Shown here one piece after another: positions 230-11,183 of a stretch of 11,224 nt of DNA. Below the pieces are notes generated by a model, which did not search any database, had not been told where the DNA came from, and saw only the letters and a program-made list of their open reading frames with translations. Made by a program: the position numbers and the translations under genes. Every line of letters begins with the position of its first letter. The first letter of the stretch is position 1. Source of the DNA: Candidatus Thorarchaeota archaeon (GTDB lineage Archaea > Asgardarchaeota > Thorarchaeia > Thorarchaeales > Thorarchaeaceae); assembly GCA_011364905.1 (NCBI GenBank), contig RDNZ01000065.1:1-11224 (forward strand). Direction: 5' to 3'.

Positions 230-1936
230 ATGGCGAATCCCAGTAACCCACTCATAGTACAGTCTGACAAATCGGTCCTCCTAGAGGTAGACAATCCACT
301 ATACGAGGATGCCAGAGATTCACTCGCACGTTTTGCAGAACTTGTCAAAAGCCCAGAGTATGTTCACACCTATCGTGTCACTCCACTCAGCCTCTGGAAC
401 GCAGCAGCCATGGGGATGACACCTGACGAGGTCATTGCAGCGCTTGAGAAATTCGCCAAGTATCCGATTCCCGGGAACATTTCAAGAGAAATTGTTGATT
501 ACATGTCCAGATATGGTCAACTCTCCCTGTACAAGGAAGGCCCAGACCTTCTCCTTTTGTGCGAAGATGAAGACCTTGCAGAGGAGATATGGGCAAACAC
601 AAAGCTGAGAGAGTTTCTAATTGACCGTGTGGACGCAGTAACAATTCGGGTTGATCCTGACCAGAGAGGATTTCTAAAATATGCGTTGATTGAGATTGGT
701 CATCCGGTCGAGGACGTAGCAGGTTATGTTGAAGGAGAACATCTTCCCTTTGAAATCCGCGACGTGACTCTTGAAGGTAAGAAATGGGACCTTCGAGCAT
801 ATCAGAAGGATGCAGTCGCCATCTTTTATGCTGGAGGCGGCGTTAAGGGAGGCTCTGGCGTAGTTGTCTTACCTTGTGGGGCAGGCAAAACGATGGTGGG
901 GATTGGAGCTATGTATAATCTGCAGACCTCTACAATCATTTTGTGCCCCAACGTCGTTGCGGTCAGGCAATGGATAGCTGAACTTCTTGACAAGACTACA
1001 TTGAAACCTGAAGACATTGGTGAATATACTGGTGACAATAAGGAAATTCGGCCTGTGACTGTGGCCACCTACCAAATTCTAACATGGCGCAAGTCTAGGG
1101 AGGAGAAGTTCCCCCATTTCCAGATTTTTGAGGCAAGAAACTGGGGACTGATAATCTATGATGAGGTACATCTACTTCCCGCACCTGTCTTTCGAGTAAC
1201 TGCGACAATCCAAGCCACAAGAAGACTTGGACTAACTGCAACTCTGGTCCGAGAGGATGGAAAAGAGGAGGATGTCTTCAGCTTGATTGGTCCCAAGCGT
1301 TTCGATATGCCGTGGAAACAGCTTGAAGATCAGGGGTGGATTGCGACAGCCATTTGCTACGAGATAAGACTTGACCTGCCAGACAACATGCGGAGAACCT
1401 ATGCCTTGGCAGAGGACAGGAAGAAATATCGAATCGCAGCTGAAAATCCATTCAAACTCGATGTGATTAAAGAGCTTCTCCAGTATCATGAGAATGACAA
1501 TATTCTGGTCATAGGCATGTATCTTGACCAATTGAAAATCATTGCCGATGAGGTTGATGCGCCACTCATCACCGGAAAGACACCTAATGACGAGAGGCAA
1601 CGTCTCTATAACGCTTTTAGAGAGGGCGAACAGAAGATCCTTATCGTATCTAAAGTTGCCAATTTCGCACTTGATCTCCCGGATGCCAATGTAGCTATCC
1701 AAGTATCAGGAACATTTGGTTCGCGGCAAGAAGAGGCACAGCGATTGGGAAGAATTCTACGGCCCAAAATCGATGGATCATTCGCTCGATTTTATTCACT
1801 TATCACAAAGGACACCCGTGACATGGACTTTGCAGCTAAACGACAGCTTTTCCTCACCGAGCAAGGCTATCAATACGTGATTGCATCTGCAGAAGAAAAA
1901 ATCTGGCTTACTCCACCTGAGAGCTTTTTCAATTAG
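230..1936 (+). CDS. xpb: XPB/Rad25/ERCC3-family SF2 DNA repair helicase/translocase, long form with N-terminal Helicase_C_3-type domain
   Basis: Walker A VLPCGAGKT, Walker B DEVH, motif III plus RED (GLTATLVRED), motif VI GSRQEEAQRLGRILRPK and C-terminal KRQLFLTEQGY. The N-terminus PLIVQSDKSVLLEVD...SPEYVHTYRVTPLSLWNA resembles mycobacterial-type XPB. Confidence 0.95.
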   Translation: MANPSNPLIVQSDKSVLLEVDNPLYEDARDSLARFAELVKSPEYVHTYRVTPLSLWNAAAMGMTPDEVIAALEKFAKYPIPGNISREIVDYMSRYGQLSLYKEGPDLLLLCEDEDLAEEIWANTKLREFLIDRVDAVTIRVDPDQRGFLKYALIEIGHPVEDVAGYVEGEHLPFEIRDVTLEGKKWDLRAYQKDAVAIFYAGGGVKGGSGVVVLPCGAGKTMVGIGAMYNLQTSTIILCPNVVAVRQWIAELLDKTTLKPEDIGEYTGDNKEIRPVTVATYQILTWRKSREEKFPHFQIFEARNWGLIIYDEVHLLPAPVFRVTATIQATRRLGLTATLVREDGKEEDVFSLIGPKRFDMPWKQLEDQGWIATAICYEIRLDLPDNMRRTYALAEDRKKYRIAAENPFKLDVIKELLQYHENDNILVIGMYLDQLKIIADEVDAPLITGKTPNDERQRLYNAFREGEQKILIVSKVANFALDLPDANVAIQVSGTFGSRQEEAQRLGRILRPKIDGSFARFYSLITKDTRDMDFAAKRQLFLTEQGYQYVIASAEEKIWLTPPESFFN

Positions 1937-2895
1937 AGCAGGATTGAGCTCAATCTAGTAATCTTAGAACGAATATAGTCAATGAGAGCTGACCGTATTC
2001 TCTTTGTTGCCAGGCTTGGTTCTAGAAGACCTGCTTCCATTGAGAGCAACCGTTCCAGAGACCAAAGAATCAGATAGGCAATGAGCGGAGGTCTCAGCCT
2101 GTTCACCTCCTCCGTTTCTTCAGGCGATACTAAACCCTCGGGCAAGTCTTGCGATGCTCCAGCATCTGCTTCTATCAGATACGCCAAGTCGAAGAAACGC
2201 GATCCATATGCGCAGGACTCAAGATCGAGAAGAATTGCTGATCCTTCTCGGAAGACAATATTGGGTGCCCATAAATCCCCATGCATCAGCTCGGAAGGCC
2301 ATGTTCTTAGCGAGTCGGCATATTTGAGTACACTAGGATAGATCTCTCCAAAAGAGGCAAGAAGGTCATCAACTTCTTGTGAACATCTGGAACGATGCAT
2401 ATGGTTTTCAGTAACTTCATAGATGGATGTCAGGTACTCGTGTGCCGAAGTGTGTAGTATGAGTCCAGGTGGTTTTTGCTGAGAGAAAATCAGAAGACTT
2501 CTCCGCAGAGATTCTAGTTCGCTGAGTGTATAGTCTGCCAAATCTTCATGAATCACGCCGTCGATATACTCGAATATGATGAACGGAGTGTCAGCATCAT
2601 CAGAGAGGTTGCCAACTGCGAGCGGCTTGGCTGTAACTCCTGTTTTACCAAGGAATGAACTAGTGGCAAAAAGGCGATTGTAGTGTGATGTTTCATAGGG
2701 AGGAACCGAAGCGGGTACCTTCAAGACGAAGTCAATTCCATCAGACTGCCCAAGAACATTGATGTTTGACCAACCCCCAAGTGACTGCTCTTTCAAGACG
2801 ACATCACCATCAAAGAAATCACATGCGTCACGAAGAAGTTGTTCCAACTCGACAATGGTGTGCCCGTGGGTTCTGGTGAATCCCAGATCTTTCAT
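1933..2895 (-). CDS. Aminoglycoside phosphotransferase / choline kinase-like phosphotransferase (protein kinase-like fold)
   Basis: Gly-rich loop LGGWSNIN, FVLKVP lysine, Brenner motif HGDLWAPN, metal-binding LLDLE and GSRFFDLAYL. Start moved from 3015 to ATG 2895 (MKDLGF) to avoid a head-to-head overlap with the gene at 2950. Confidence 0.8.
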   Translation of the reverse strand: MKDLGFTRTHGHTIVELEQLLRDACDFFDGDVVLKEQSLGGWSNINVLGQSDGIDFVLKVPASVPPYETSHYNRLFATSSFLGKTGVTAKPLAVGNLSDDADTPFIIFEYIDGVIHEDLADYTLSELESLRRSLLIFSQQKPPGLILHTSAHEYLTSIYEVTENHMHRSRCSQEVDDLLASFGEIYPSVLKYADSLRTWPSELMHGDLWAPNIVFREGSAILLDLESCAYGSRFFDLAYLIEADAGASQDLPEGLVSPEETEEVNRLRPPLIAYLILWSLERLLSMEAGLLEPSLATKRIRSALIDYIRSKITRLSSILL

Positions 2896-2949
2896 CTCCG
2901 CAGTTCTACACCCGACAACTTCTAAAAGGCTGTCGGGGGTTGCCAAGTC

Positions 2950-3237
2950 ATGAACGGGAGAGACCTCCTTCTCATACTCGCACACCTTTTCAGAATGAAA
3001 GGCAACCCTGTTCAAGTTGAAGATGCAGTTGAGTTCATCTCATTCAGGTGTAGGTACGGCCAACCAAGCCTAGTGAGACGTATGCTCACAATGGCAGTTG
3101 CAAATGAAATGATATCAAGAGTCAAAGACACTCTCAAAGCGGAATTTCTCTTTGACCGTCAGGTACTTCCGCCCAACCTTGCATCTATTCTGTCTGATAA
3201 AGTCAATATTGATAGCAGTATCGAGCCCATGTTTTAG
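2950..3237 (+). CDS. DUF2240-like small archaeal protein (probable winged helix)
   Basis: 95 aa. The pattern LAHLFRMKG...FISFRCRYGQP...RRMLTMAVANEMI...LKAEF...VLPPN resembles the N-terminal part of archaeal DUF2240 proteins. It fills the gap between the kinase and RFC genes. Confidence 0.65.
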   Translation: MNGRDLLLILAHLFRMKGNPVQVEDAVEFISFRCRYGQPSLVRRMLTMAVANEMISRVKDTLKAEFLFDRQVLPPNLASILSDKVNIDSSIEPMF

Positions 3238-4346
3238 GCTTGCTCAGCGGCAATTGCCCGAAGCGATGCTAGCAGTGCAGCTAGATGAACAAATGCGTTC
3301 TTTCCCTGTAGAAGACGAAAATCAATCTCTGCGACTCTGTCCAAAACCTTGCTAAGAACCTCAGGCGCAAAAGGTCGTTTCACAAGGTCTCTCTCAATCT
3401 CAAGACAAATCTCCTGAGGGGTGTATCCGTCAATAGCGACGAGATTTCGAATCTCCTTTCTTGCTGGGGCATATTGGCCATCTAGTGCCAGTGTCACGAT
3501 ATTCCGTGCGCTCTCTGTCAACTGAGTTTCAGCATGCTCATAGACAACATCTTCTGTGACAGAATTACTTGCAGCGGAGGTTATCTGGAGTAGATTCATT
3601 GCACGTCGAAGATCGCCTTCCGTTTCTCGTGCGATGGTGGTTACAGCAGTGTCATCTATTTTCACGTGCTCTTTCTTGGCGATGTTCCTAATGAAGTCTT
3701 GAGCAACTTCAATGGATAAAGGTGGAAAATTCAATGTTAGAGACCTCGATATAATGGCCGGACTCCATCCTGAGAGCGTTGGAGTGATGAGAATGAATCG
3801 ACAGGTGTCACTGTATAGTTCCATGGTCCTTCTAAGAGCTTGTTGCATACCCCAACTAAGAGCATCAGCTTCGTCTAGCACAAGAATCTTGACTTTTTCG
3901 TTTGTGACCGTAGCGGTTGATGCAAAGAAGCGGATTGCTTCAGACAGAATCTCCGACCTTGTGGGATTGCCTGAGCGGCCCCGCGCGTTCCTTGCAGATT
4001 TCGCCTCACGATAAATCACGGAGATATACTCTTCCAACTCAGATCTCTTACCACGTTCGAGCTTCGCAAGGTCTTGAACAGAACGTTTTGCCTTGGTCAC
4101 CGGGATGTCCCAAACATCACGGATATTTAGGATTTTGAAGTTTGCATTAAAGCTGTCACCCAATATGGTTCTGCAGAAGATCTCAGAAGCACAAGTCTTT
4201 CCTGTTCCCTCAGGTCCATAGAAAATCATATTCGTGAAAATGCCGGACTCGGCTAGGGATTTCAGTTGCTTTATAGTATTGTCTTTGCCAACGAAATCAC
4301 TCCATGTCTTAGGCCTGTATTTTACGCTCCATAGGACTGGTTCCAA
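3234..4346 (-). CDS. rfcS: Replication factor C small subunit, divergent paralog with insertion
   Basis: WSVKYRPKTWSDFVG (RFC box II), Walker A GPEGTGKT, Walker B LDEADAL, QQALRRTME, arginine-finger SRS, sensor-2 GDLRRA and a C-terminal collar domain. Likely start is TTG at 4346, preceded by an SD-like GGTGA. Confidence 0.9.
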   Translation of the reverse strand: MEPVLWSVKYRPKTWSDFVGKDNTIKQLKSLAESGIFTNMIFYGPEGTGKTCASEIFCRTILGDSFNANFKILNIRDVWDIPVTKAKRSVQDLAKLERGKRSELEEYISVIYREAKSARNARGRSGNPTRSEILSEAIRFFASTATVTNEKVKILVLDEADALSWGMQQALRRTMELYSDTCRFILITPTLSGWSPAIISRSLTLNFPPLSIEVAQDFIRNIAKKEHVKIDDTAVTTIARETEGDLRRAMNLLQITSAASNSVTEDVVYEHAETQLTESARNIVTLALDGQYAPARKEIRNLVAIDGYTPQEICLEIERDLVKRPFAPEVLSKVLDRVAEIDFRLLQGKNAFVHLAALLASLRAIAAEQA

Positions 4347-4422
4347 GTTTTCACCCAAAATCGTGTCGGACCATTTGAAGATAAGATTGTTTCTTTTTCC
4401 GACAGAGTTATTCAGACATGTG

Positions 4423-4459
4423 ATTATATAATTTGGCAAAACCAAAAGTTCCTTATATG
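4423..4459. promoter_or_regulatory. Divergent promoter elements between rfcS and the p52-like gene
   Basis: Palindromic ATTATATAAT at 4423-4432, and AAAAGTTCCTTATATG (BRE/TATA-like) at 4444-4459, inside a 166-bp intergenic gap. Confidence 0.45.
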
Positions 4460-4512
4460 CTCAAAAGCTGGGCGCTTGTTTGCAATTGACTGGTTTGCGG
4501 TCGGTTAAGATT

Positions 4513-6231
4513 ATGACGAAAGAGACCCTTGAGAAAGAATTGGAACACATCCTAAGGGAGGATTTGATTGTGGCATGCCAGTACTGGTCAATTGATGTCA
4601 CTGGCAAGGACACAGGAGCATCTCTTATCAAAATGCTAGCAGAAAAGATGCGGGATCCCGATGAGCGCGCCAAAGTCTTTGCGACATTCTCACCTCTGGA
4701 ACGTGACCTTCTCGGCATTCTTACTCTAAGTGGGGGAGCAATGAGCTATGACCGTCTCAAACCATTCAGGAAGATTTACAGCTATGGACAATTGAATCAG
4801 ACTGAGAGAGACCTTCGAAAGAAGGGGATAATCATACGAAGGATGATGTCACGTCTAACTGAGTTTGGAAGAGAAGTAGCGGAATTCAAGATTCTGGATT
4901 TCTTCATACCTCACTTGAGAGATTTCTTCGAAAAGAAACCAGAGCCACATCCAGAAAAGCCAAAGAAGACAAAAAGCATCGTGAACGACAGAGACACATT
5001 GCTCATCGACATGCTCCTCCTCGTATCGTATCTGGCAAAACGAGAGGTCCATCTCACAAGTGCTTGGGAGTTTCCAAGAAGAGAGATGGACAATATAAAG
5101 GAGTCAATGTCCAAAGCCACTGATGAGCGATTTGAACTTGTTCAAAAAATGGCTCGGAAAATGGGGGCTTACACTGTAGTAGAAGAAGACAGAGTCCTAC
5201 CCTCGAATATCAGCTTGTTGTTTGCTGGCGAATACCATAATGTGGCCCGAAGACTGTTGCTATCACAACTTGGGCGGACACGAGCAATATGGGCAACTCC
5301 AGACCAACCCACCGAGTATACTCTCAACTTGACAATATGCAGATTGAGAGAAAGTACATCCGAGGAGTGGATAAGCGTTGAGGAGCTAAAGGACTGGATA
5401 AGAAGTGAGCTGTTCATTGAGAATCAACAACAAAAATGGATTCAAGTCGACGATGACAGAGTTCAACTTTCACTGGAAACTCCCCTTCTTTTGGGGCTCG
5501 TTGAAGGTGCTTATCGCGGAAAGAAACTCCTTGCAGTCAAGCTTACAGAGGTTGGAGAAATTGTCCTTAAAGGAACACCCTTCGACCCCGCAGAAAGTCG
5601 GGAAACATTCTTTGTTTTACCGAATTTCGAGGTCACAGTCTTCAGTACCGAAATGGAATATCAGAACTTGTACCGCTTGATGCTAATTACAGAACCCGTA
5701 AAAACGGATGTTGTGAGTACATTCAAGATTACCGACAAATCGGTCTTCGATGCAATTGAGATAGGTCTTCGAGAGGATGATATTCTTGGATTCTTGAAAA
5801 ACGTGAGTACTAAGCCGATTCCTAGAAATGTAGATCGATCCATTAAGGATTGGACATCCCAAACGACCTTTACATCAATCTCCGATGTTATGTTATTTGA
5901 AACAGAGAGTGAGAGAGACCTCGAGGGATTGATGCTTATCCCAGACTTCACAAAGCGGATTGTGAGAAAGGTTGGACCAACAGCAGTAATTGTATCCGGC
6001 GATATGGACGAGCTCAGCGAGAAACTTCGAAAACACAAGTGTATGGTCCGGAGGAAAACAGGCGAGGATGAAACTGCTGTTTCACCAGACTCATCAGTTA
6101 CAGAGCAGTTTCTACTTTATAATGAGGGGCAGAGCGCTGAAGATGTTCCGGATCTCTGTAATGGATGTCCAGCCGTACAATCGTGTAATAAGATCATTCG
6201 AAGGCGAAGTCAAATAACACGAGGTAACTAG
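4513..6231 (+). CDS. Helicase-associated (Helicase_C_3) domain protein, TFIIH p52/Tfb2-like; putative XPB partner
   Basis: FFVLPNFEVTVF...FKITDKSVFDAIEIGLREDDILGFLKNVSTKPIPRNVDRSIKDW matches the Helicase_C_3/p52 clutch pattern. It is preceded by LGLVE...VKLTEVG (winged-helix end) and followed by a small alpha/beta domain. No ATPase motifs. Start is ATG 4513 or TTG 4480. Confidence 0.8.
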   Translation: MTKETLEKELEHILREDLIVACQYWSIDVTGKDTGASLIKMLAEKMRDPDERAKVFATFSPLERDLLGILTLSGGAMSYDRLKPFRKIYSYGQLNQTERDLRKKGIIIRRMMSRLTEFGREVAEFKILDFFIPHLRDFFEKKPEPHPEKPKKTKSIVNDRDTLLIDMLLLVSYLAKREVHLTSAWEFPRREMDNIKESMSKATDERFELVQKMARKMGAYTVVEEDRVLPSNISLLFAGEYHNVARRLLLSQLGRTRAIWATPDQPTEYTLNLTICRLRESTSEEWISVEELKDWIRSELFIENQQQKWIQVDDDRVQLSLETPLLLGLVEGAYRGKKLLAVKLTEVGEIVLKGTPFDPAESRETFFVLPNFEVTVFSTEMEYQNLYRLMLITEPVKTDVVSTFKITDKSVFDAIEIGLREDDILGFLKNVSTKPIPRNVDRSIKDWTSQTTFTSISDVMLFETESERDLEGLMLIPDFTKRIVRKVGPTAVIVSGDMDELSEKLRKHKCMVRRKTGEDETAVSPDSSVTEQFLLYNEGQSAEDVPDLCNGCPAVQSCNKIIRRRSQITRGN

Positions 6232-7579: not shown

Positions 7580-8545
7580 CTATCCTGGATTATAGTTGTC
7601 CTGCAACTCTTCTGCGAGCAGGGCTGCCAGCTCCCTAAAATCACGCATTGATATGTGTGGAACACTGCTCGTACGCTCGGGGATGTCGAACCGAGCTACT
7701 ATCACAATGACATCCTTATCCATTGAGTATTCAAGAAGCGCCGGGTACCGAGTCCCAATCCGGAATGTATCTTCACGTGCTTCGACTCGACCACCTTTGT
7801 AAGCCGTTCCAACAAGATACGGGTAGGCAAATCCACTGTGCGAAACTTGTACCTTAATCTGGACGGTTTCAGGGAGATTTTGGACATAGGCTTTGACCTC
7901 AGCATCAATGATGGTCTGAACTCCTCCACGGACTCCGAGCTCTACATTCATTCCGGCTCTAACACCTCGCACTCCAGCAAGCTCGCTTGCAAAACTGTAG
8001 ACATCACCCTTCAGTGGAGGCTTGAAGAACTCCTGAGCGTCTATGGATGGAATTCTGAATCCAATAACAAACCCTGCAACTGCAACAATGCTGCATTCAA
8101 GGACGATGAAGAGAATTGGATCGAGTATAGGATTAATGAGAACAAGTCCAGTCCTTTGAGAGAAGTAAATCAAATATCCTAGAATTGCGACAAAGATTAG
8201 AGCGCAGAAAAAGCTCAGAGTATCGCCAGGGTGTGAATACAACTCGCCATATGCATCTTCATACTTTTCAACCATGTCATCATAATCAGCAAAACTTACC
8301 CAGGTCTTCTTCTTCTCCCATTTTCCGGGTATGTAGTCGATAGCTCTCTTAGAGCCTGCGCCCATCGCCAATGACACCAAGAATAGTGCGACAGGAATAT
8401 CAATGTAAATTACCAATCTAATCATTTCACCGGTCTCTAGAAAGTTCAGAGCTATTGCCGCAACTGCGAAGAGAACTGCAATGACTGCGAAGGCCCTGTT
8501 CACACCTCTTTGACGACTATAGTCGATGATTCTCTCTTCGTTCAA
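7580..8545 (-). CDS. Hypothetical 4-TM membrane protein with C-terminal soluble domain (paralog C)
   Basis: 321-aa ORF with a TTG start; shares motif order with the two upstream genes. Confidence 0.8.
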   Translation of the reverse strand: MNEERIIDYSRQRGVNRAFAVIAVLFAVAAIALNFLETGEMIRLVIYIDIPVALFLVSLAMGAGSKRAIDYIPGKWEKKKTWVSFADYDDMVEKYEDAYGELYSHPGDTLSFFCALIFVAILGYLIYFSQRTGLVLINPILDPILFIVLECSIVAVAGFVIGFRIPSIDAQEFFKPPLKGDVYSFASELAGVRGVRAGMNVELGVRGGVQTIIDAEVKAYVQNLPETVQIKVQVSHSGFAYPYLVGTAYKGGRVEAREDTFRIGTRYPALLEYSMDKDVIVIVARFDIPERTSSVPHISMRDFRELAALLAEELQDNYNPG

Positions 8546-8591
8546 TCCAAACCGTCCCGATACAATCTCAGTACTTGGGGAGTGATAAGCT

Positions 8592-9539
8592 CTACGATGA
8601 TTGATGAACTTCCTTTTCTGTTGAGTGACTCAGAAATGCTTTGACCTCTTCGACCACTTCATCAAGGAATTCCTCCTCCTCTTTCTCCTTGATGTAAGTT
8701 TCTAGCAATCTCAGAGCTAGTTCCGCAATGAGCCTCGTAGAAACCTCTTCATTAGAGTGCTCCGTCACCTTCTGTGAGCCCGACTCATCAAGGACAATCG
8801 TGGTGGACATCTTTGAAAAATTGCCTTCTTCATCTTGTTCCCCTTGAATCATTGCAGCGCTCTCGATGCCCTCAATTCTTGCCACAGGTGATACACTACG
8901 AATCGAATAGTAGCCTGATGCCTCCCCTAAGATCAGCTTCACGCCAACCCAGGAAAGACCTGGTGATTTATGCATCAGCTCAATCATAGGATGTAGACGT
9001 TTCACTGAAACTGTTGGGAAATGTGGTGTGGCCTCATTTGGCATGATTTTGAACACAATTGAAGCGCACACAAGTCCGAAAAGCAATACAAAGAGACCAA
9101 AAATCACAGGCGTCACTGCAATCAGTGTCAGTACGGTTCGCATGAGAACAAAGGGAGTCGTCACTGCAGCAAAGCCTATGATGCCCGCTAATCCTATGAG
9201 GTTGTAGTCAATTTCTGAGAGGAAATCGCGATACTCTTTTCGATATTCTTTCATCATCTCTTTGTATTCAGTAAGTGAAATTTCTCTTTCTCTCAAGGTC
9301 CAGATTGGATCAACGTATATCACTTGTATCTTCATTCTCCAAGCGACTGCTGCAACCACGGGGACTATGCTGACAAGTACAAACACGGACCAAGCTATCC
9401 ATGAAAGAGGTTTTTCATACAGTGGAACCAACTGGACTTGCGCCACTTCAAAACCGATGATTGCCCAAACGAATACTATCAGGAAAAGTGCAATTTGGTA
9501 AGTACGAAATGATCCTATTCTTACGGGACCCTCAGTCAA
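8592..9539 (-). CDS. Hypothetical 4-TM membrane protein with C-terminal soluble domain (paralog B)
   Basis: 315-aa ORF with a TTG start 2 bp after the upstream stop; motifs YVDPIW, PGLSW and ARIEGIE. Confidence 0.8.
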   Translation of the reverse strand: MTEGPVRIGSFRTYQIALFLIVFVWAIIGFEVAQVQLVPLYEKPLSWIAWSVFVLVSIVPVVAAVAWRMKIQVIYVDPIWTLREREISLTEYKEMMKEYRKEYRDFLSEIDYNLIGLAGIIGFAAVTTPFVLMRTVLTLIAVTPVIFGLFVLLFGLVCASIVFKIMPNEATPHFPTVSVKRLHPMIELMHKSPGLSWVGVKLILGEASGYYSIRSVSPVARIEGIESAAMIQGEQDEEGNFSKMSTTIVLDESGSQKVTEHSNEEVSTRLIAELALRLLETYIKEKEEEEFLDEVVEEVKAFLSHSTEKEVHQSS

Positions 9540-9541
9540 CC

Positions 9542-10555
9542 TTATCCCTCAGGAGGTGTAGCATTTAACTCGGTTAGGACCTGAGACAGGTTCTCATTTC
9601 GACCTCGAGTTTCAAGCCATTCCAAGATTATAATGGCAACTGCGTTCTCAAGAACCACCCTGATGTCCTTGACGCCCGGATGCGCAACCTTGGATTTGAC
9701 TGGGAGTCGGACATAGTATCCGTTTTCATCCTTGCCTACGAACTTGCGGTAGTTCCTATCGGTTCCAATCCACCACCACACAACTTGCGGAAGTTTTTCT
9801 GTTTCCATGAGCCTACACAGAACACGGCTGACAGCATGAAGATCCTCGGACCAAGATTCAATGTATGCATCATGCTCAATGCCATCGATCCGAGCAATCA
9901 CTCTGGGGCTTTCATAGATCTCGTGACCATCCCGCATTCCTTTATCGAACACAACACGGATGTATGATAGACCTGGAATATGCTCCTGAGCTTTGGCAAG
10001 TGTAATCGTTTCTCTTGCAAGGAGAATATCGAAGTCCTCAGATGCAGCATTGGAAGTAGCCAATAACGCACCTACCGATGCAACCACATACACGAGTGAA
10101 AGAGAGATTGCAAACAGCCAAGGGCCAAGTCCCTCCAGGATGAGATGCTCCATATAGATGTAGACTGGTAGTCCAGCAAGAAAGAGAAGAAGGGCTATTG
10201 GGATAAAGAAAGTCCAGTAACTGCTGTTCGAAACTAGTCGCCAGTACTTTCGTTTGTTTTGTTTTACAAGGATCTTAGCCTCGTCAATCTTCATCTGAAC
10301 CGGTTCCATGGTCCATGTGGGATCACTGTAGTTGATAGTGGATTTCTTACCATACCAACCAATGTAGAATCCAATCGCTGAAACTAACACTGGAAGACCA
10401 ATGAAACAGACCAAGTATGCGACCAGATCCCATGTTGAAGTAGGAAGATACATGTCTGCTACGAAGTAGCCTATGGCGATAAGCGACAGACCACCCAGGA
10501 CTATAGCTGCGTAAATCTTTGTCAGTGATTTGTAGGTCACAAAAGGATCTGTCAT
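9542..10555 (-). CDS. Hypothetical 4-TM membrane protein with C-terminal soluble domain (paralog A)
   Basis: 337-aa ORF with an ATG start; motifs YSDPTW, PGLSY and ARIDGIE. Confidence 0.8.
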   Translation of the reverse strand: MTDPFVTYKSLTKIYAAIVLGGLSLIAIGYFVADMYLPTSTWDLVAYLVCFIGLPVLVSAIGFYIGWYGKKSTINYSDPTWTMEPVQMKIDEAKILVKQNKRKYWRLVSNSSYWTFFIPIALLLFLAGLPVYIYMEHLILEGLGPWLFAISLSLVYVVASVGALLATSNAASEDFDILLARETITLAKAQEHIPGLSYIRVVFDKGMRDGHEIYESPRVIARIDGIEHDAYIESWSEDLHAVSRVLCRLMETEKLPQVVWWWIGTDRNYRKFVGKDENGYYVRLPVKSKVAHPGVKDIRVVLENAVAIIILEWLETRGRNENLSQVLTELNATPPEG

Positions 10556-10700: not shown

Positions 10701-11183
10701 TTGCTAAAAGTGGGTGACAAGGCGCCAAATTTCACGACAACAACCGAAAACGGAGAAATGATCAAGCTCAACGACTTCAAAGGGAAGAAAATTTTCCTCT
10801 ATTTCTATCCCAAGGACAACACGCCGGGATGCAAAGCTGAGGCTTGTTCTATTCGTGACAACTTCAAAGTGTTTGAGAAATCCGACATCCCTGTTTTCGG
10901 GGTCTCGGGTGGCAACAAGAAGTCGCACAAGAGTTTCAAAGATAAGAACAATCTTCCCTTCCCGCTCCTCATGGACGAGGAGTTTGAGATTGCGAAGCTC
11001 TATGACGTCTATAAGAAAAAGAGCATGTATGGGAAGGAGTACATGGGTATCGAACGAACAACTTTCCTCATAGATGAGAAAGGAAAAATCGAGGGGATTT
11101 TTGGTGGCCCAGAGGGAATTGAGAAGGTCAAAACCAAGGAGCATGCGGACCAAGTCATCAAATTCTGGAATCTCAAATTGTAG
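10701..11183 (+). CDS. bcp: Thioredoxin-dependent thiol peroxidase, BCP/PrxQ peroxiredoxin (atypical 2-Cys, CxxxxC)
   Basis: LKVGDKAPNF, YFYPKDNTPGCKAEAC (peroxidatic PxxxTxxC plus resolving Cys), LPFPLL and GIERTTFLID. Confidence 0.95.
   Translation: MLKVGDKAPNFTTTTENGEMIKLNDFKGKKIFLYFYPKDNTPGCKAEACSIRDNFKVFEKSDIPVFGVSGGNKKSHKSFKDKNNLPFPLLMDEEFEIAKLYDVYKKKSMYGKEYMGIERTTFLIDEKGKIEGIFGGPEGIEKVKTKEHADQVIKFWNLKL

What the first reader, a model, noticed from the sequence alone, without database searches (positions are those of the whole stretch)
230..6231. Candidate minimal TFIIH-like XPB-p52 module in an archaeal genome
Seen: a long-form XPB, and 2.6 kb away a non-catalytic protein carrying a second copy of the same domain (XPB: LIVQSD...YRVTPLSLWNAAAMGMTPDEVIAALEKFAKYPIPGNISREIVDY; partner: FFVLPN...FKITDKSVFDAIEIGLREDDILGFLKNVSTKPIPRNVDRSIKDW). 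Known: in eukaryotic TFIIH the XPB N-terminal domain and the p52/Tfb2 clutch domain share a fold, dimerise pseudo-symmetrically and stimulate XPB ATPase. The characterised archaeal XPBs lack this N-terminal domain and partner with Bax1. Inference: this archaeon encodes an XPB-p52-like heterodimer, either a prokaryotic counterpart or precursor of the TFIIH translocase arm or a bacterial acquisition. Caveats: similar xpb plus Helicase_C_3 gene pairs occur in bacteria (e.g. Mycobacterium Rv0861c/Rv0862c), and here the two genes are not co-transcribed.
Basis: partly seen in the sequence, partly recalled or inferred. Interest (0 to 1): 0.85.

Follow-up and report, generated by a model that had tools for sequence, protein, structure and literature searches.

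The report
Thorarchaeal XPB with p52-like partner
An Asgard (Thorarchaeota) contig encodes the DNA-opening motor XPB and, 2.6 kb away, a protein predicted to fold like the whole of p52, the subunit that holds and activates XPB in eukaryotic TFIIH. The same gene pair is a common operon in bacteria, so this is an old prokaryotic module and has not been shown to be the direct ancestor of TFIIH.

Summary
ORF 230-1936 is a full-length long-form XPB with an N-terminal Helicase_C_3 domain. ORF 4513-6231 is a 572-aa protein without a motor that carries a second copy of that domain (direct BLASTP E 1e-7).

An AlphaFold2 model of the partner (pLDDT 84.6) has TFIIH p52/Tfb2 as its 19 best PDB matches, collinear over about 370 residues. 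Its clutch domain superposes on the XPB N-terminal domain at 1.1 A.

The pair is conserved, with fixed synteny, in 74 of 76 genomes of the window's family and in 1 of 1 of a sister family. It was found in none of 224 other Asgard genomes searched, many of which carry the short XPB.

In bacteria from more than 12 phyla, a partner-family gene lies near XPB in 39 of 57 informative loci, mostly abutting it. Fused XPB-partner proteins also occur.

XPB trees place the Thor clade with or among bacterial XPBs, and eukaryotes sit on a long stem. A Thor+eukaryote clade is not rejected (AU p 0.75), so the origin is unresolved.

This scan has noted the same module before in other Thorarchaeota genomes, and one follow-up reached the same verdict.

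The parts
230..1936 (+). Long-form XPB helicase/translocase (568 aa). It has Walker A (GAGKT), DEVH, the RED motif and motif VI (QRLGRILR).
   Evidence: NF045503 at 864 bits; Pfam ResIII, ERCC3_RAD25_C and Helicase_C. The motifs were read in the translation. phmmer against PDB: yeast Rad25 at 318 bits, A. fulgidus short XPB at 142 bits.
251..631 (+). XPB N-terminal domain (Helicase_C_3, aa 8-134), the counterpart of the p52-binding NTD of eukaryotic XPB.
   Evidence: Pfam PF13625 E 1.3e-34; genome search places it at 251-631.
1933..3015 (-). APH-family phosphotransferase/kinase. It is an intervening gene, present in 11 of the 13 other Thor loci examined.
   Evidence: Pfam APH E 8.3e-15; synteny.
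3234..4445 (-). RFC small subunit (clamp-loader AAA+), head-to-head with the p52-like gene. The linkage holds in all 13 other Thor loci.
   Evidence: NF001679 and NF009067 at 250 and 234 bits, below the equivalog cut-offs, matched in two stretches. It is the only RFC-S hit in this assembly. Synteny.
4446..4512 (.). 67-bp divergent intergenic region between the RFC-S and p52-like start codons, presumably a shared promoter region.
   Evidence: Coordinates. The promoter role is inferred and was not tested.
4513..6231 (+). p52/Tfb2-like XPB partner (572 aa), annotated in databases as 'helicase-associated domain-containing protein'.
4513..5571 (+). N-terminal winged-helix array (aa 1-353), matching the p52 N-terminal half.
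5590..5868 (+). Clutch domain (aa 360-452), a second copy of the XPB N-terminal domain.
5866..6054 (+). Small alpha/beta C-terminal domain (aa 452-514), in the position and with the fold of the p52 C-terminal (p8-binding) module.
6148..6231 (+). C-terminal tail not seen in the five non-Thor relatives inspected: motif C-x2-C-P-A-x2-S-C followed by a basic helix.
   Evidence: Conserved in the window and all 13 other Thor loci, and in P0123 and P0125. Absent from P0128, P0134, P0142 and P0175. The model is of low confidence here. Function unknown.

Best explanation
The window encodes a two-protein, prokaryotic-type XPB module. One protein is a catalytically intact long-form XPB. The other is a full-length homologue of TFIIH p52/Tfb2 (a winged-helix array, a clutch domain that is a copy of the XPB N-terminal domain, and a p8/p52-CTD-like end domain). 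The most likely mechanism, inferred by homology with TFIIH, is as follows. The partner's clutch pairs beta-sheet to beta-sheet with the XPB N-terminal domain in a pseudo-symmetric heterodimer. Its C-terminal domain lies against XPB RecA2. Together they position and stimulate the XPB ATPase/dsDNA translocase, while the winged-helix array tethers the motor to DNA or to other factors, for DNA opening in repair. Evolutionarily this is the same module that many bacterial phyla encode as an XPB-partner operon or fusion. Among the Asgard archaea searched it occurs in one order only (Thorarchaeia), where the two genes have been separated by a kinase gene and the RFC small-subunit gene but have stayed linked. 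Shown here: the identity and architecture of both proteins, their distribution, the linkage and the fusions. Inferred: binding, ATPase stimulation and the repair role.
For: XPB identity and intact motifs.
C-terminal domain alone: the top-ranked chains are the XPB DRD-like region, Tfb5, p8 and the Tfb2 C-terminal domain.
Sequence-level homology: the family profile hits the XPB NTD (E 9e-6) and the Tfb2/p52 clutch (E 8.5e-5 to 1e-3) in PDB. Nine of ten relatives tested give Pfam Tfb2 hits at profile positions about 240-357, and P0175 scores above the gathering score.
The Thr that aligns with human XPB T119, which is also conserved in the p52 clutch (Greber et al., bioRxiv 10.1101/507723), is present in both window proteins: RVT-P in XPB and KIT-D in the partner (alignment).
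Linkage in Thor: most positive Thor genomes have exactly two PF13625 hits, and by my reading of the table about 50 have both on one contig and strand, 4.4-8.5 kb apart. The order XPB - (APH) - RFC-S - p52-like holds in all 13 other Thor loci.
Linkage in bacteria: 39 of 57 informative loci have a partner-family ORF in the locus, 33 of them abutting XPB on the same strand or overlapping it.
Fusions: predicted proteins in both orders carry two Helicase_C_3 stretches each (P0300, P0305, P0309, P0314).
No Bax1/DUF790, Tfb5, Ssl1 or second XPB was found in this 81%-complete genome.
Against: No interaction was computed or measured.
In Thor the two genes are not co-transcribed, because two minus-strand genes lie between them.
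The window's partner itself gives no Pfam Tfb2 or Tfb2_C hit, even at E 10.
It is only about 16-23% identical to bacterial family members.
18 of 57 informative bacterial XPB loci have no partner within the flanks, for example in Spirochaetota and Fibrobacterota.
One archaeal family member (P0128, fused to a WYL domain) has no XPB within 8 kb, so the family can also work away from an adjacent XPB gene.
The fusions come from metagenome gene calls, and assembly or frame errors are not excluded.
Confidence: 0.72

Rival explanations
1. The Thorarchaeial pair descends vertically from the module of the Asgard ancestor of eukaryotes. On this reading it is the direct precursor of the XPB-p52 arm of TFIIH, other Asgard lineages lost it, and bacteria acquired theirs by transfer.
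For: The host is an Asgard archaeon. The partner matches p52 over its full length, including the end domain. Thor XPB is not nested deep inside any one bacterial phylum. In the 83-row set, the tree with Thor+eukaryotes held together has a log-likelihood 17.7 higher than the quick free tree, with AU p 0.75. Support for eukaryotes lying outside a Thor+bacteria group is only UFBoot 56 / SH-aLRT 91.
Against: PF13625 was found in 0 of 224 genomes of the other Asgard families searched, against 75 of 77 in the Thor order. Many of those other lineages carry the short XPB. Thor XPB is 54-63% identical to the bacterial XPBs aligned with it and 29-40% to eukaryotic ones, and it meets the bacterial-type equivalog NF045503. 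Free trees put Thor with or among bacteria. No p8, p44 or Pfam-detectable Tfb2 was found in the genome. The long eukaryote and outgroup stems make any deep placement unreliable.
Confidence: 0.12
2. The two proteins do not form a complex in Thorarchaeota. On this reading the partner is an independent winged-helix DNA-binding or regulatory protein that merely retains a Helicase_C_3 domain, and its conserved head-to-head pairing with the RFC small-subunit gene reflects a role in replication or clamp loading, not XPB control.
For: The genes are not co-transcribed, and the partner shares a 67-bp divergent intergenic region with RFC-S in the window. RFC-S and the partner are neighbours in all 13 other Thor loci. 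P0128 shows that a family member can lie without an adjacent XPB. WYL and SWIM fusions in relatives suggest sensor or regulator roles. The partner has diverged far more than XPB.
Against: XPB and partner co-occur and stay within 4.4-8.5 kb across a whole archaeal order. The clutch keeps a 1.1 A match to the XPB NTD. Operons and fusions in bacteria argue for joint function of the family.
Confidence: 0.13
3. The pair is part of a mobile or anti-phage defence system that was transferred horizontally.
For: The bacterial XPB tree does not follow phyla, which suggests frequent transfer. XPB gives weak hits to the PbeA helicase models of PADLOC (85.6 bits).
Against: The partner, the kinase and orf284 have no PADLOC hit, and the XPB hits are generic helicase similarity (85.6 against 864 bits for XPB). 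The neighbours are housekeeping genes (RFC, peroxiredoxin). Synteny is stable across the order, and no integrase or transposase was found among the window's ORFs of 97 aa or more that were scanned.
Confidence: 0.03

Closest known systems
Eukaryotic TFIIH translocase submodule XPB-p52-p8 (Ssl2-Tfb2-Tfb5), e.g. PDB 6NMI, 7NVV, 8EBS, 6TRS
   Same: Long-form XPB with the N-terminal domain. The partner is collinear with p52 over the winged-helix array, the clutch (same fold as the XPB NTD) and the small C-terminal domain. The Thr equivalent to XPB T119 is conserved in both domains.
   Different: No p8/Tfb5, p44, p34 or p62 was detected. XPB lacks the eukaryotic N- and C-terminal extensions and the DRD insertion (568 aa against 782-843). 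The partner has a Cys-rich basic tail not seen outside Thorarchaeota and gives no Pfam Tfb2 hit. XPB is only 29-40% identical to eukaryotic XPB. Any role in transcription is unlikely, since archaeal initiation is not known to need such a factor (general knowledge).
Bacterial long-form XPB (e.g. Mycobacterium tuberculosis XPB, Rv0861c) with the adjacent 'helicase-associated domain-containing protein' (Rv0862c type)
   Same: Same XPB family: NF045503 over its full length, and 54-63% identity to the bacterial XPBs aligned. Same partner family: 2024 representatives at E<=1e-3. The pair is linked in 39 of 57 informative loci across more than 12 phyla.
   Different: In bacteria the genes usually abut or are fused, and the partners are mostly 600-900 aa, some with WYL or SWIM domains or as tandem paralogues. 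In Thor the genes are split by two opposite-strand genes, and the partner is 572 aa with its own tail. The Mtb XPB paper states that no p52 homologue had been found in bacteria (PMC3353954). I did not examine the Mtb locus itself.
Archaeal short XPB-Bax1 helicase-nuclease
   Same: XPB helicase core (142 bits to A. fulgidus XPB). Presumed role in DNA opening for repair.
   Different: The short form has a DRD in place of the Helicase_C_3 NTD and pairs with the Bax1 nuclease (PMC13024598). No DUF790/Bax1 was found in this genome. Many other Asgard genomes searched carry the short form, and a few Thor genomes carry both.

Membership tests
XPB/Rad25/Ssl2 helicase, long form | SF2 helicase core with the XPB-specific motifs (Walker A, DEVH, RED, motif VI) | tested here: met
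   NF045503 at 864 bits (cut-off 610); TIGR00603 at 362 bits (cut-off 328.7); the motifs were read in the translation.
XPB/Rad25/Ssl2 helicase, long form | N-terminal Helicase_C_3 (XPB NTD) domain | tested here: met
   PF13625 E 1.3e-34, aa 8-134.
TFIIH p52/Tfb2 | Match to the Pfam Tfb2 model (PF03849) above the gathering score | tested here: not met
   No hit for the window protein at E<=10, nor in the whole genome at E<=1. Relatives give sub-threshold hits, and P0175 scores 38.9 bits against a cut-off of 34.5.
TFIIH p52/Tfb2 | Clutch domain with the fold of the XPB N-terminal domain | tested here: met
   [not shown]
TFIIH p52/Tfb2 | N-terminal array of winged-helix domains collinear with p52 | tested here: met
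   [not shown]
TFIIH p52/Tfb2 | C-terminal dimerisation module of the p8/Tfb5 fold | tested here: inconclusive
   [not shown]
TFIIH p52/Tfb2 | Binds the XPB NTD and stimulates the XPB ATPase | not testable with these tools
This needs biochemistry.
TFIIH p52/Tfb2 | Partners p8/Tfb5 and p34/p62 present | tested here: not met
   Tfb5 best E 0.42, which is noise. Ssl1 gave no hit. Tfb4 and p62 were not searched. The genome is 81% complete.
Archaeal XPB-Bax1 system | Bax1 (DUF790) nuclease gene next to XPB or elsewhere in the genome | tested here: not met
   PF05626 has no hit in the genome, while the control genomes (Haloferax, Sulfolobus, Methanosarcina) do match.
Prokaryotic XPB + helicase-associated-domain partner pair | Long-form XPB genetically linked to a motor-less Helicase_C_3 protein | tested here: met
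   Window, this report; the 13 other Thor loci; 39 of 57 informative bacterial loci; fusions.

The most novel reading that the evidence does not exclude
The Thorarchaeial XPB/p52-like pair is a vertically inherited remnant of the module present in the Asgard lineage that gave rise to eukaryotes. In that case the XPB-p52 arm of TFIIH, including a p8-like end domain made by duplication of an XPB NTD+DRD unit, pre-dates eukaryogenesis in archaea, and the bacterial operons derive from or are sister to it.
Probability: 0.12. Interest if true: 0.9.

Novelty: new variant of a known kind. Interest (0 to 1): 0.62.

Why it matters
p52 and the other non-helicase subunits of TFIIH are usually treated as eukaryotic inventions. 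The Mtb XPB paper states that no p52 homologue had been found in bacteria (PMC3353954), and my five full-text searches found no paper that describes a prokaryotic p52.

A full-length p52 homologue, encoded with long-form XPB in many bacterial phyla and in one Asgard order, would mean that the XPB-p52 translocase arm is older than eukaryotes.

It also offers a minimal two-protein system, free of the other eight TFIIH subunits, for studying how p52 holds and activates XPB. That question bears on XP, TTD and XP-J disease mutations.

Finally, it turns the origin of TFIIH (bacterial, Asgard or older) into a question that phylogenies and biochemistry can address.

Tried and rejected

I considered modelling a natural fusion (P0305) as a stand-in. 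The joint alignment A5 stacked the partner rows onto the XPB part, and the tool reports no inter-domain contacts, so I dropped this and used the second fold job on the C-terminal domain instead.

Pfam Tfb2 and Tfb2_C gave no hit on the window protein at E<=10. Genome-wide searches for Tfb2, Tfb5 and Ssl1 found nothing. PADLOC gave nothing for the partner, the kinase or orf284.

Foldseek on the isolated C-terminal domain gave no match at E<=0.001.

Five literature searches for a described prokaryotic or Asgard p52 homologue found none. The library lacks most subscription journals, so this is weak evidence of absence.

I did not obtain eukaryotic p52 sequences, so no p52 and partner phylogeny was made. 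A partner-only tree was not built either.

The reading that the RFC-S gene is a paralogue was checked and not supported: it is the only RFC-S match in this 81%-complete assembly.
Full report
WHAT IS THERE

The window is an entire 11.2-kb contig (C65) of a 3.08-Mb, 81%-complete MAG. The closest homologues of its proteins that carry names are from Candidatus Thorarchaeota, which are Asgard archaea.

ORF 230-1936 (+) is a 568-aa XPB.
- It matches the NCBIfam equivalog NF045503 (DNA repair helicase XPB) end to end at 864 bits (cut-off 610), and TIGR00603 (rad25) at 362 bits.
- It carries Pfam Helicase_C_3 at residues 8-134, followed by ResIII, ERCC3_RAD25_C and Helicase_C.
- Walker A (GAGKT), DEVH, the RED motif and motif VI are all present in the translation, so the motor looks active.

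ORF 4513-6231 (+) is a 572-aa protein. Its only Pfam hit is Helicase_C_3 at residues 387-450 (E 1e-11), and it has no helicase motifs. The ATG at 4513 agrees with the 572-574 aa length of more than 100 homologues.

BLASTP of the two window proteins aligns XPB 32-94 with partner 389-450 at 32% identity, E 1e-7.

Between the two genes, on the opposite strand, lie an APH-family kinase (1933-3015) and the RFC small subunit (3234-4445). The RFC gene starts 67 bp from the partner's start codon.

THE PARTNER IS A FULL-LENGTH p52/Tfb2 HOMOLOGUE

An AlphaFold2 model built on a 55-sequence alignment has mean pLDDT 84.6 and pTM 0.72.

Foldseek against the PDB returns TFIIH p52/Tfb2 chains as the 19 best matches. 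The best is 8ebs_D at E 6.8e-12, and whole-subunit chains align over 471-548 columns. XPB chains follow, matched through their N-terminal domain. TM-scores are low (0.22-0.46) because both proteins are strings of small domains on flexible hinges.

The last folded domain (aa 452-514) was modelled alone, with pLDDT 91.3.
- Foldseek's top ranks are likewise dominated by p8 and the p52 C-terminal domain, but with E >= 0.16.
- I read this as probable homology, not proven homology.

There is sequence support as well.
- A profile of the family hits the XPB NTD (E about 1e-5) and the clutch of yeast Tfb2 (333-404, E 8.5e-5) and human p52 (307-371, E 1e-3) among PDB sequences.
- Nine of ten distant relatives give Pfam Tfb2 hits at profile positions about 240-357. 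One of them (P0175) scores above the gathering score.
- The window protein itself gives no Tfb2 hit. It is therefore a structural and remote-sequence homologue, and not a member of the Pfam family as modelled.

The Thr that corresponds to human XPB T119 is conserved in eukaryotic XPB and in the p52 clutch (Greber et al.). It is present in both window proteins (alignment).

DISTRIBUTION AND LINKAGE

Among 301 Asgard genomes, Helicase_C_3 was found in 74 of 76 genomes of the window's family and in the single genome of a sister family of the same order. It was found in none of the 224 genomes of the other families.

Most positive genomes have exactly two hits. By my reading of the table, about 50 have both on one contig and strand, 4.4-8.5 kb apart.

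In 13 Thor loci fetched from 11 further genomes and 3 named records, the order XPB(+) - APH(-) - RFC-S(-) - p52-like(+) - orf284 is kept. The sister family is included, and two loci lack a detectable APH gene. Several of these loci lie on contigs of 1.5-3.2 Mb, so the contig is genuinely archaeal and not a bacterial contaminant.

Many other Asgard genomes searched carry only a short XPB: ERCC3_RAD25_C at 44-77 bits and stop-free frames mostly of 450-570 aa, against 155-181 bits in Thor. Three Thor genomes carry both types.

This genome has no second XPB and no Bax1/DUF790, Tfb5 or Ssl1. It has two XPD-like genes elsewhere.

Outside Thorarchaeota the partner family is large: 2024 representatives (50% identity clusters) at E<=1e-3, mostly 600-900 aa, matching the query's last winged helix plus clutch plus end domain. 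Some carry WYL or SWIM domains.

A scan of one genome per species returned 600 or more XPB loci. The best 80 come from Verrucomicrobiota, Gemmatimonadota, Acidobacteriota, Chloroflexota, Planctomycetota, Bacillota, Cyanobacteriota, Spirochaetota, Fibrobacterota and others, with three Thor records ranking among them.

I searched these loci with an HMM of the partner family.
- 39 of 57 bacterial loci with usable flanks contain a partner-family ORF.
- 33 of these abut XPB on the same strand or overlap it: usually downstream, upstream in cyanobacteria, and as two tandem paralogues in Chloroflexota.
- 18 loci with at least 3 kb on both sides have none.

Four predicted proteins of 1165-1249 aa carry XPB plus a second Helicase_C_3 stretch, in both gene orders. 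Such natural fusions are classical evidence for joint function, with the caveat that these are metagenome gene calls.

ORIGIN

Thor XPB is 54-63% identical to the bacterial XPBs aligned with it and 29-40% identical to eukaryotic XPBs.

- In a quick tree of 83 XPBs rooted on short Asgard XPBs, eukaryotes form a clade on a very long stem. The prokaryotic long forms group together (SH-aLRT 92), with Thor at their base.
- In a careful tree of 58 rows (LG+C20 PMSF), Thor is a clade (UFBoot 94 / SH-aLRT 99) sitting among bacterial groups without support. The split of eukaryotes from Thor+bacteria has only UFBoot 56 / SH-aLRT 91.
- An AU test on the 83-row set does not reject a Thor+eukaryote clade. 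The constrained tree was in fact 17.7 log-likelihood units better than the quick free tree (p 0.75).

The restriction to one Asgard order and the closeness to bacterial XPBs make an old exchange with bacteria the simpler reading. The direction of that exchange is open.

MECHANISM (INFERRED)

In TFIIH, p52 recruits XPB through a pseudo-symmetric dimer of the clutch and the XPB NTD. Together with the p52 C-terminal domain and p8, it cradles RecA2 and stimulates the ATPase (PMC7708078, abstract).

Both halves of that interface are conserved here at near-identical fold, and the genes are linked or fused across prokaryotes. I therefore expect the same heterodimer and the same activation of the motor, most likely for DNA opening in repair.

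With no p8 detected, the end domain may contact XPB directly or may homodimerise.

PRIOR NOTES OF THIS SCAN

The same module was flagged by first readers in several other Thorarchaeota genomes. One follow-up (e1-5663154) reached the same verdict. My tests were made independently and agree with it.

VERDICT

This is a prokaryotic, two-component variant of the TFIIH XPB-p52 arm, shared by Thorarchaeia and many bacteria. I found no description of it in the literature I could search. Its relation to the eukaryotic complex is open and testable.

Noticed in passing
window 6148-6231 (partner aa 546-572): A tail is conserved in the window, in all 13 other Thor partners, and in P0123 and P0125: C-x2-C-P-A-x2-S-C followed by a basic helix (R/K-rich). 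It is absent from P0128, P0134, P0142 and P0175. The three Cys have the C-x2-C-x5-C spacing seen in the last three ligands of the EndoIII-type Fe-S loop (from memory), but no fourth Cys is in register. The ligand and the role are unknown.
   Followed up: partly
window 3234-4512: The RFC small-subunit gene is head-to-head with the p52-like gene (67-bp gap), and this pairing holds in all 13 other Thor loci. The RFC-S scores below the NCBIfam equivalog cut-offs, matches in two stretches (which suggests an insertion in the AAA+ module), and is the only RFC-S hit in this assembly.
   Followed up: partly
[not shown]
   Followed up: partly
window 7580-10555 (-): Three consecutive ORFs of 321, 315 and 337 aa have no Pfam or NCBIfam hit, and their counterparts are conserved downstream in the Thor loci long enough to include them.
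   Followed up: no
P0300, P0305, P0309, P0314 (proteins): Predicted proteins of 1165-1249 aa fuse XPB and a partner-type Helicase_C_3 protein, in both orders (XPB-partner and partner-XPB).
   Followed up: partly
L021, L037, L069, L072, L073 (Chloroflexota loci): Two partner-family ORFs lie in tandem downstream of XPB, which suggests paralogous p52-like subunits in these bacteria.
   Followed up: no
L104/L105 8001-10049 (Euryarchaeota archaeon ADurb.Bin023): The closest relative of the partner outside the Thor order (P0128, 682 aa) is collinear with query residues 20-527 and carries a C-terminal WYL domain. It has no XPB within 8 kb.
   Followed up: partly
L106 1011-4522 (unnamed Logan contig): A 572-aa long XPB lies divergently next to P0175, a 574-aa partner. 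P0175 is the only relative tested whose Pfam Tfb2 score passes the gathering score. This XPB is 64% identical to Thor XPBs and about 60% to bacterial ones. The organism is unknown.
   Followed up: partly
G016, G069, G075 (other Thor genomes): These three Thor genomes carry a short archaeal-type XPB in addition to the long form (second ERCC3_RAD25_C hit at 57-66 bits; complete frames of 448-457 aa in G069 and G075, a truncated one at a contig end in G016).
   Followed up: no
window 10701-11183 (+): An ordinary thioredoxin-dependent thiol peroxidase (Bcp/PrxQ type; AhpC-TSA E 1.9e-39) lies at the contig end.
   Followed up: no
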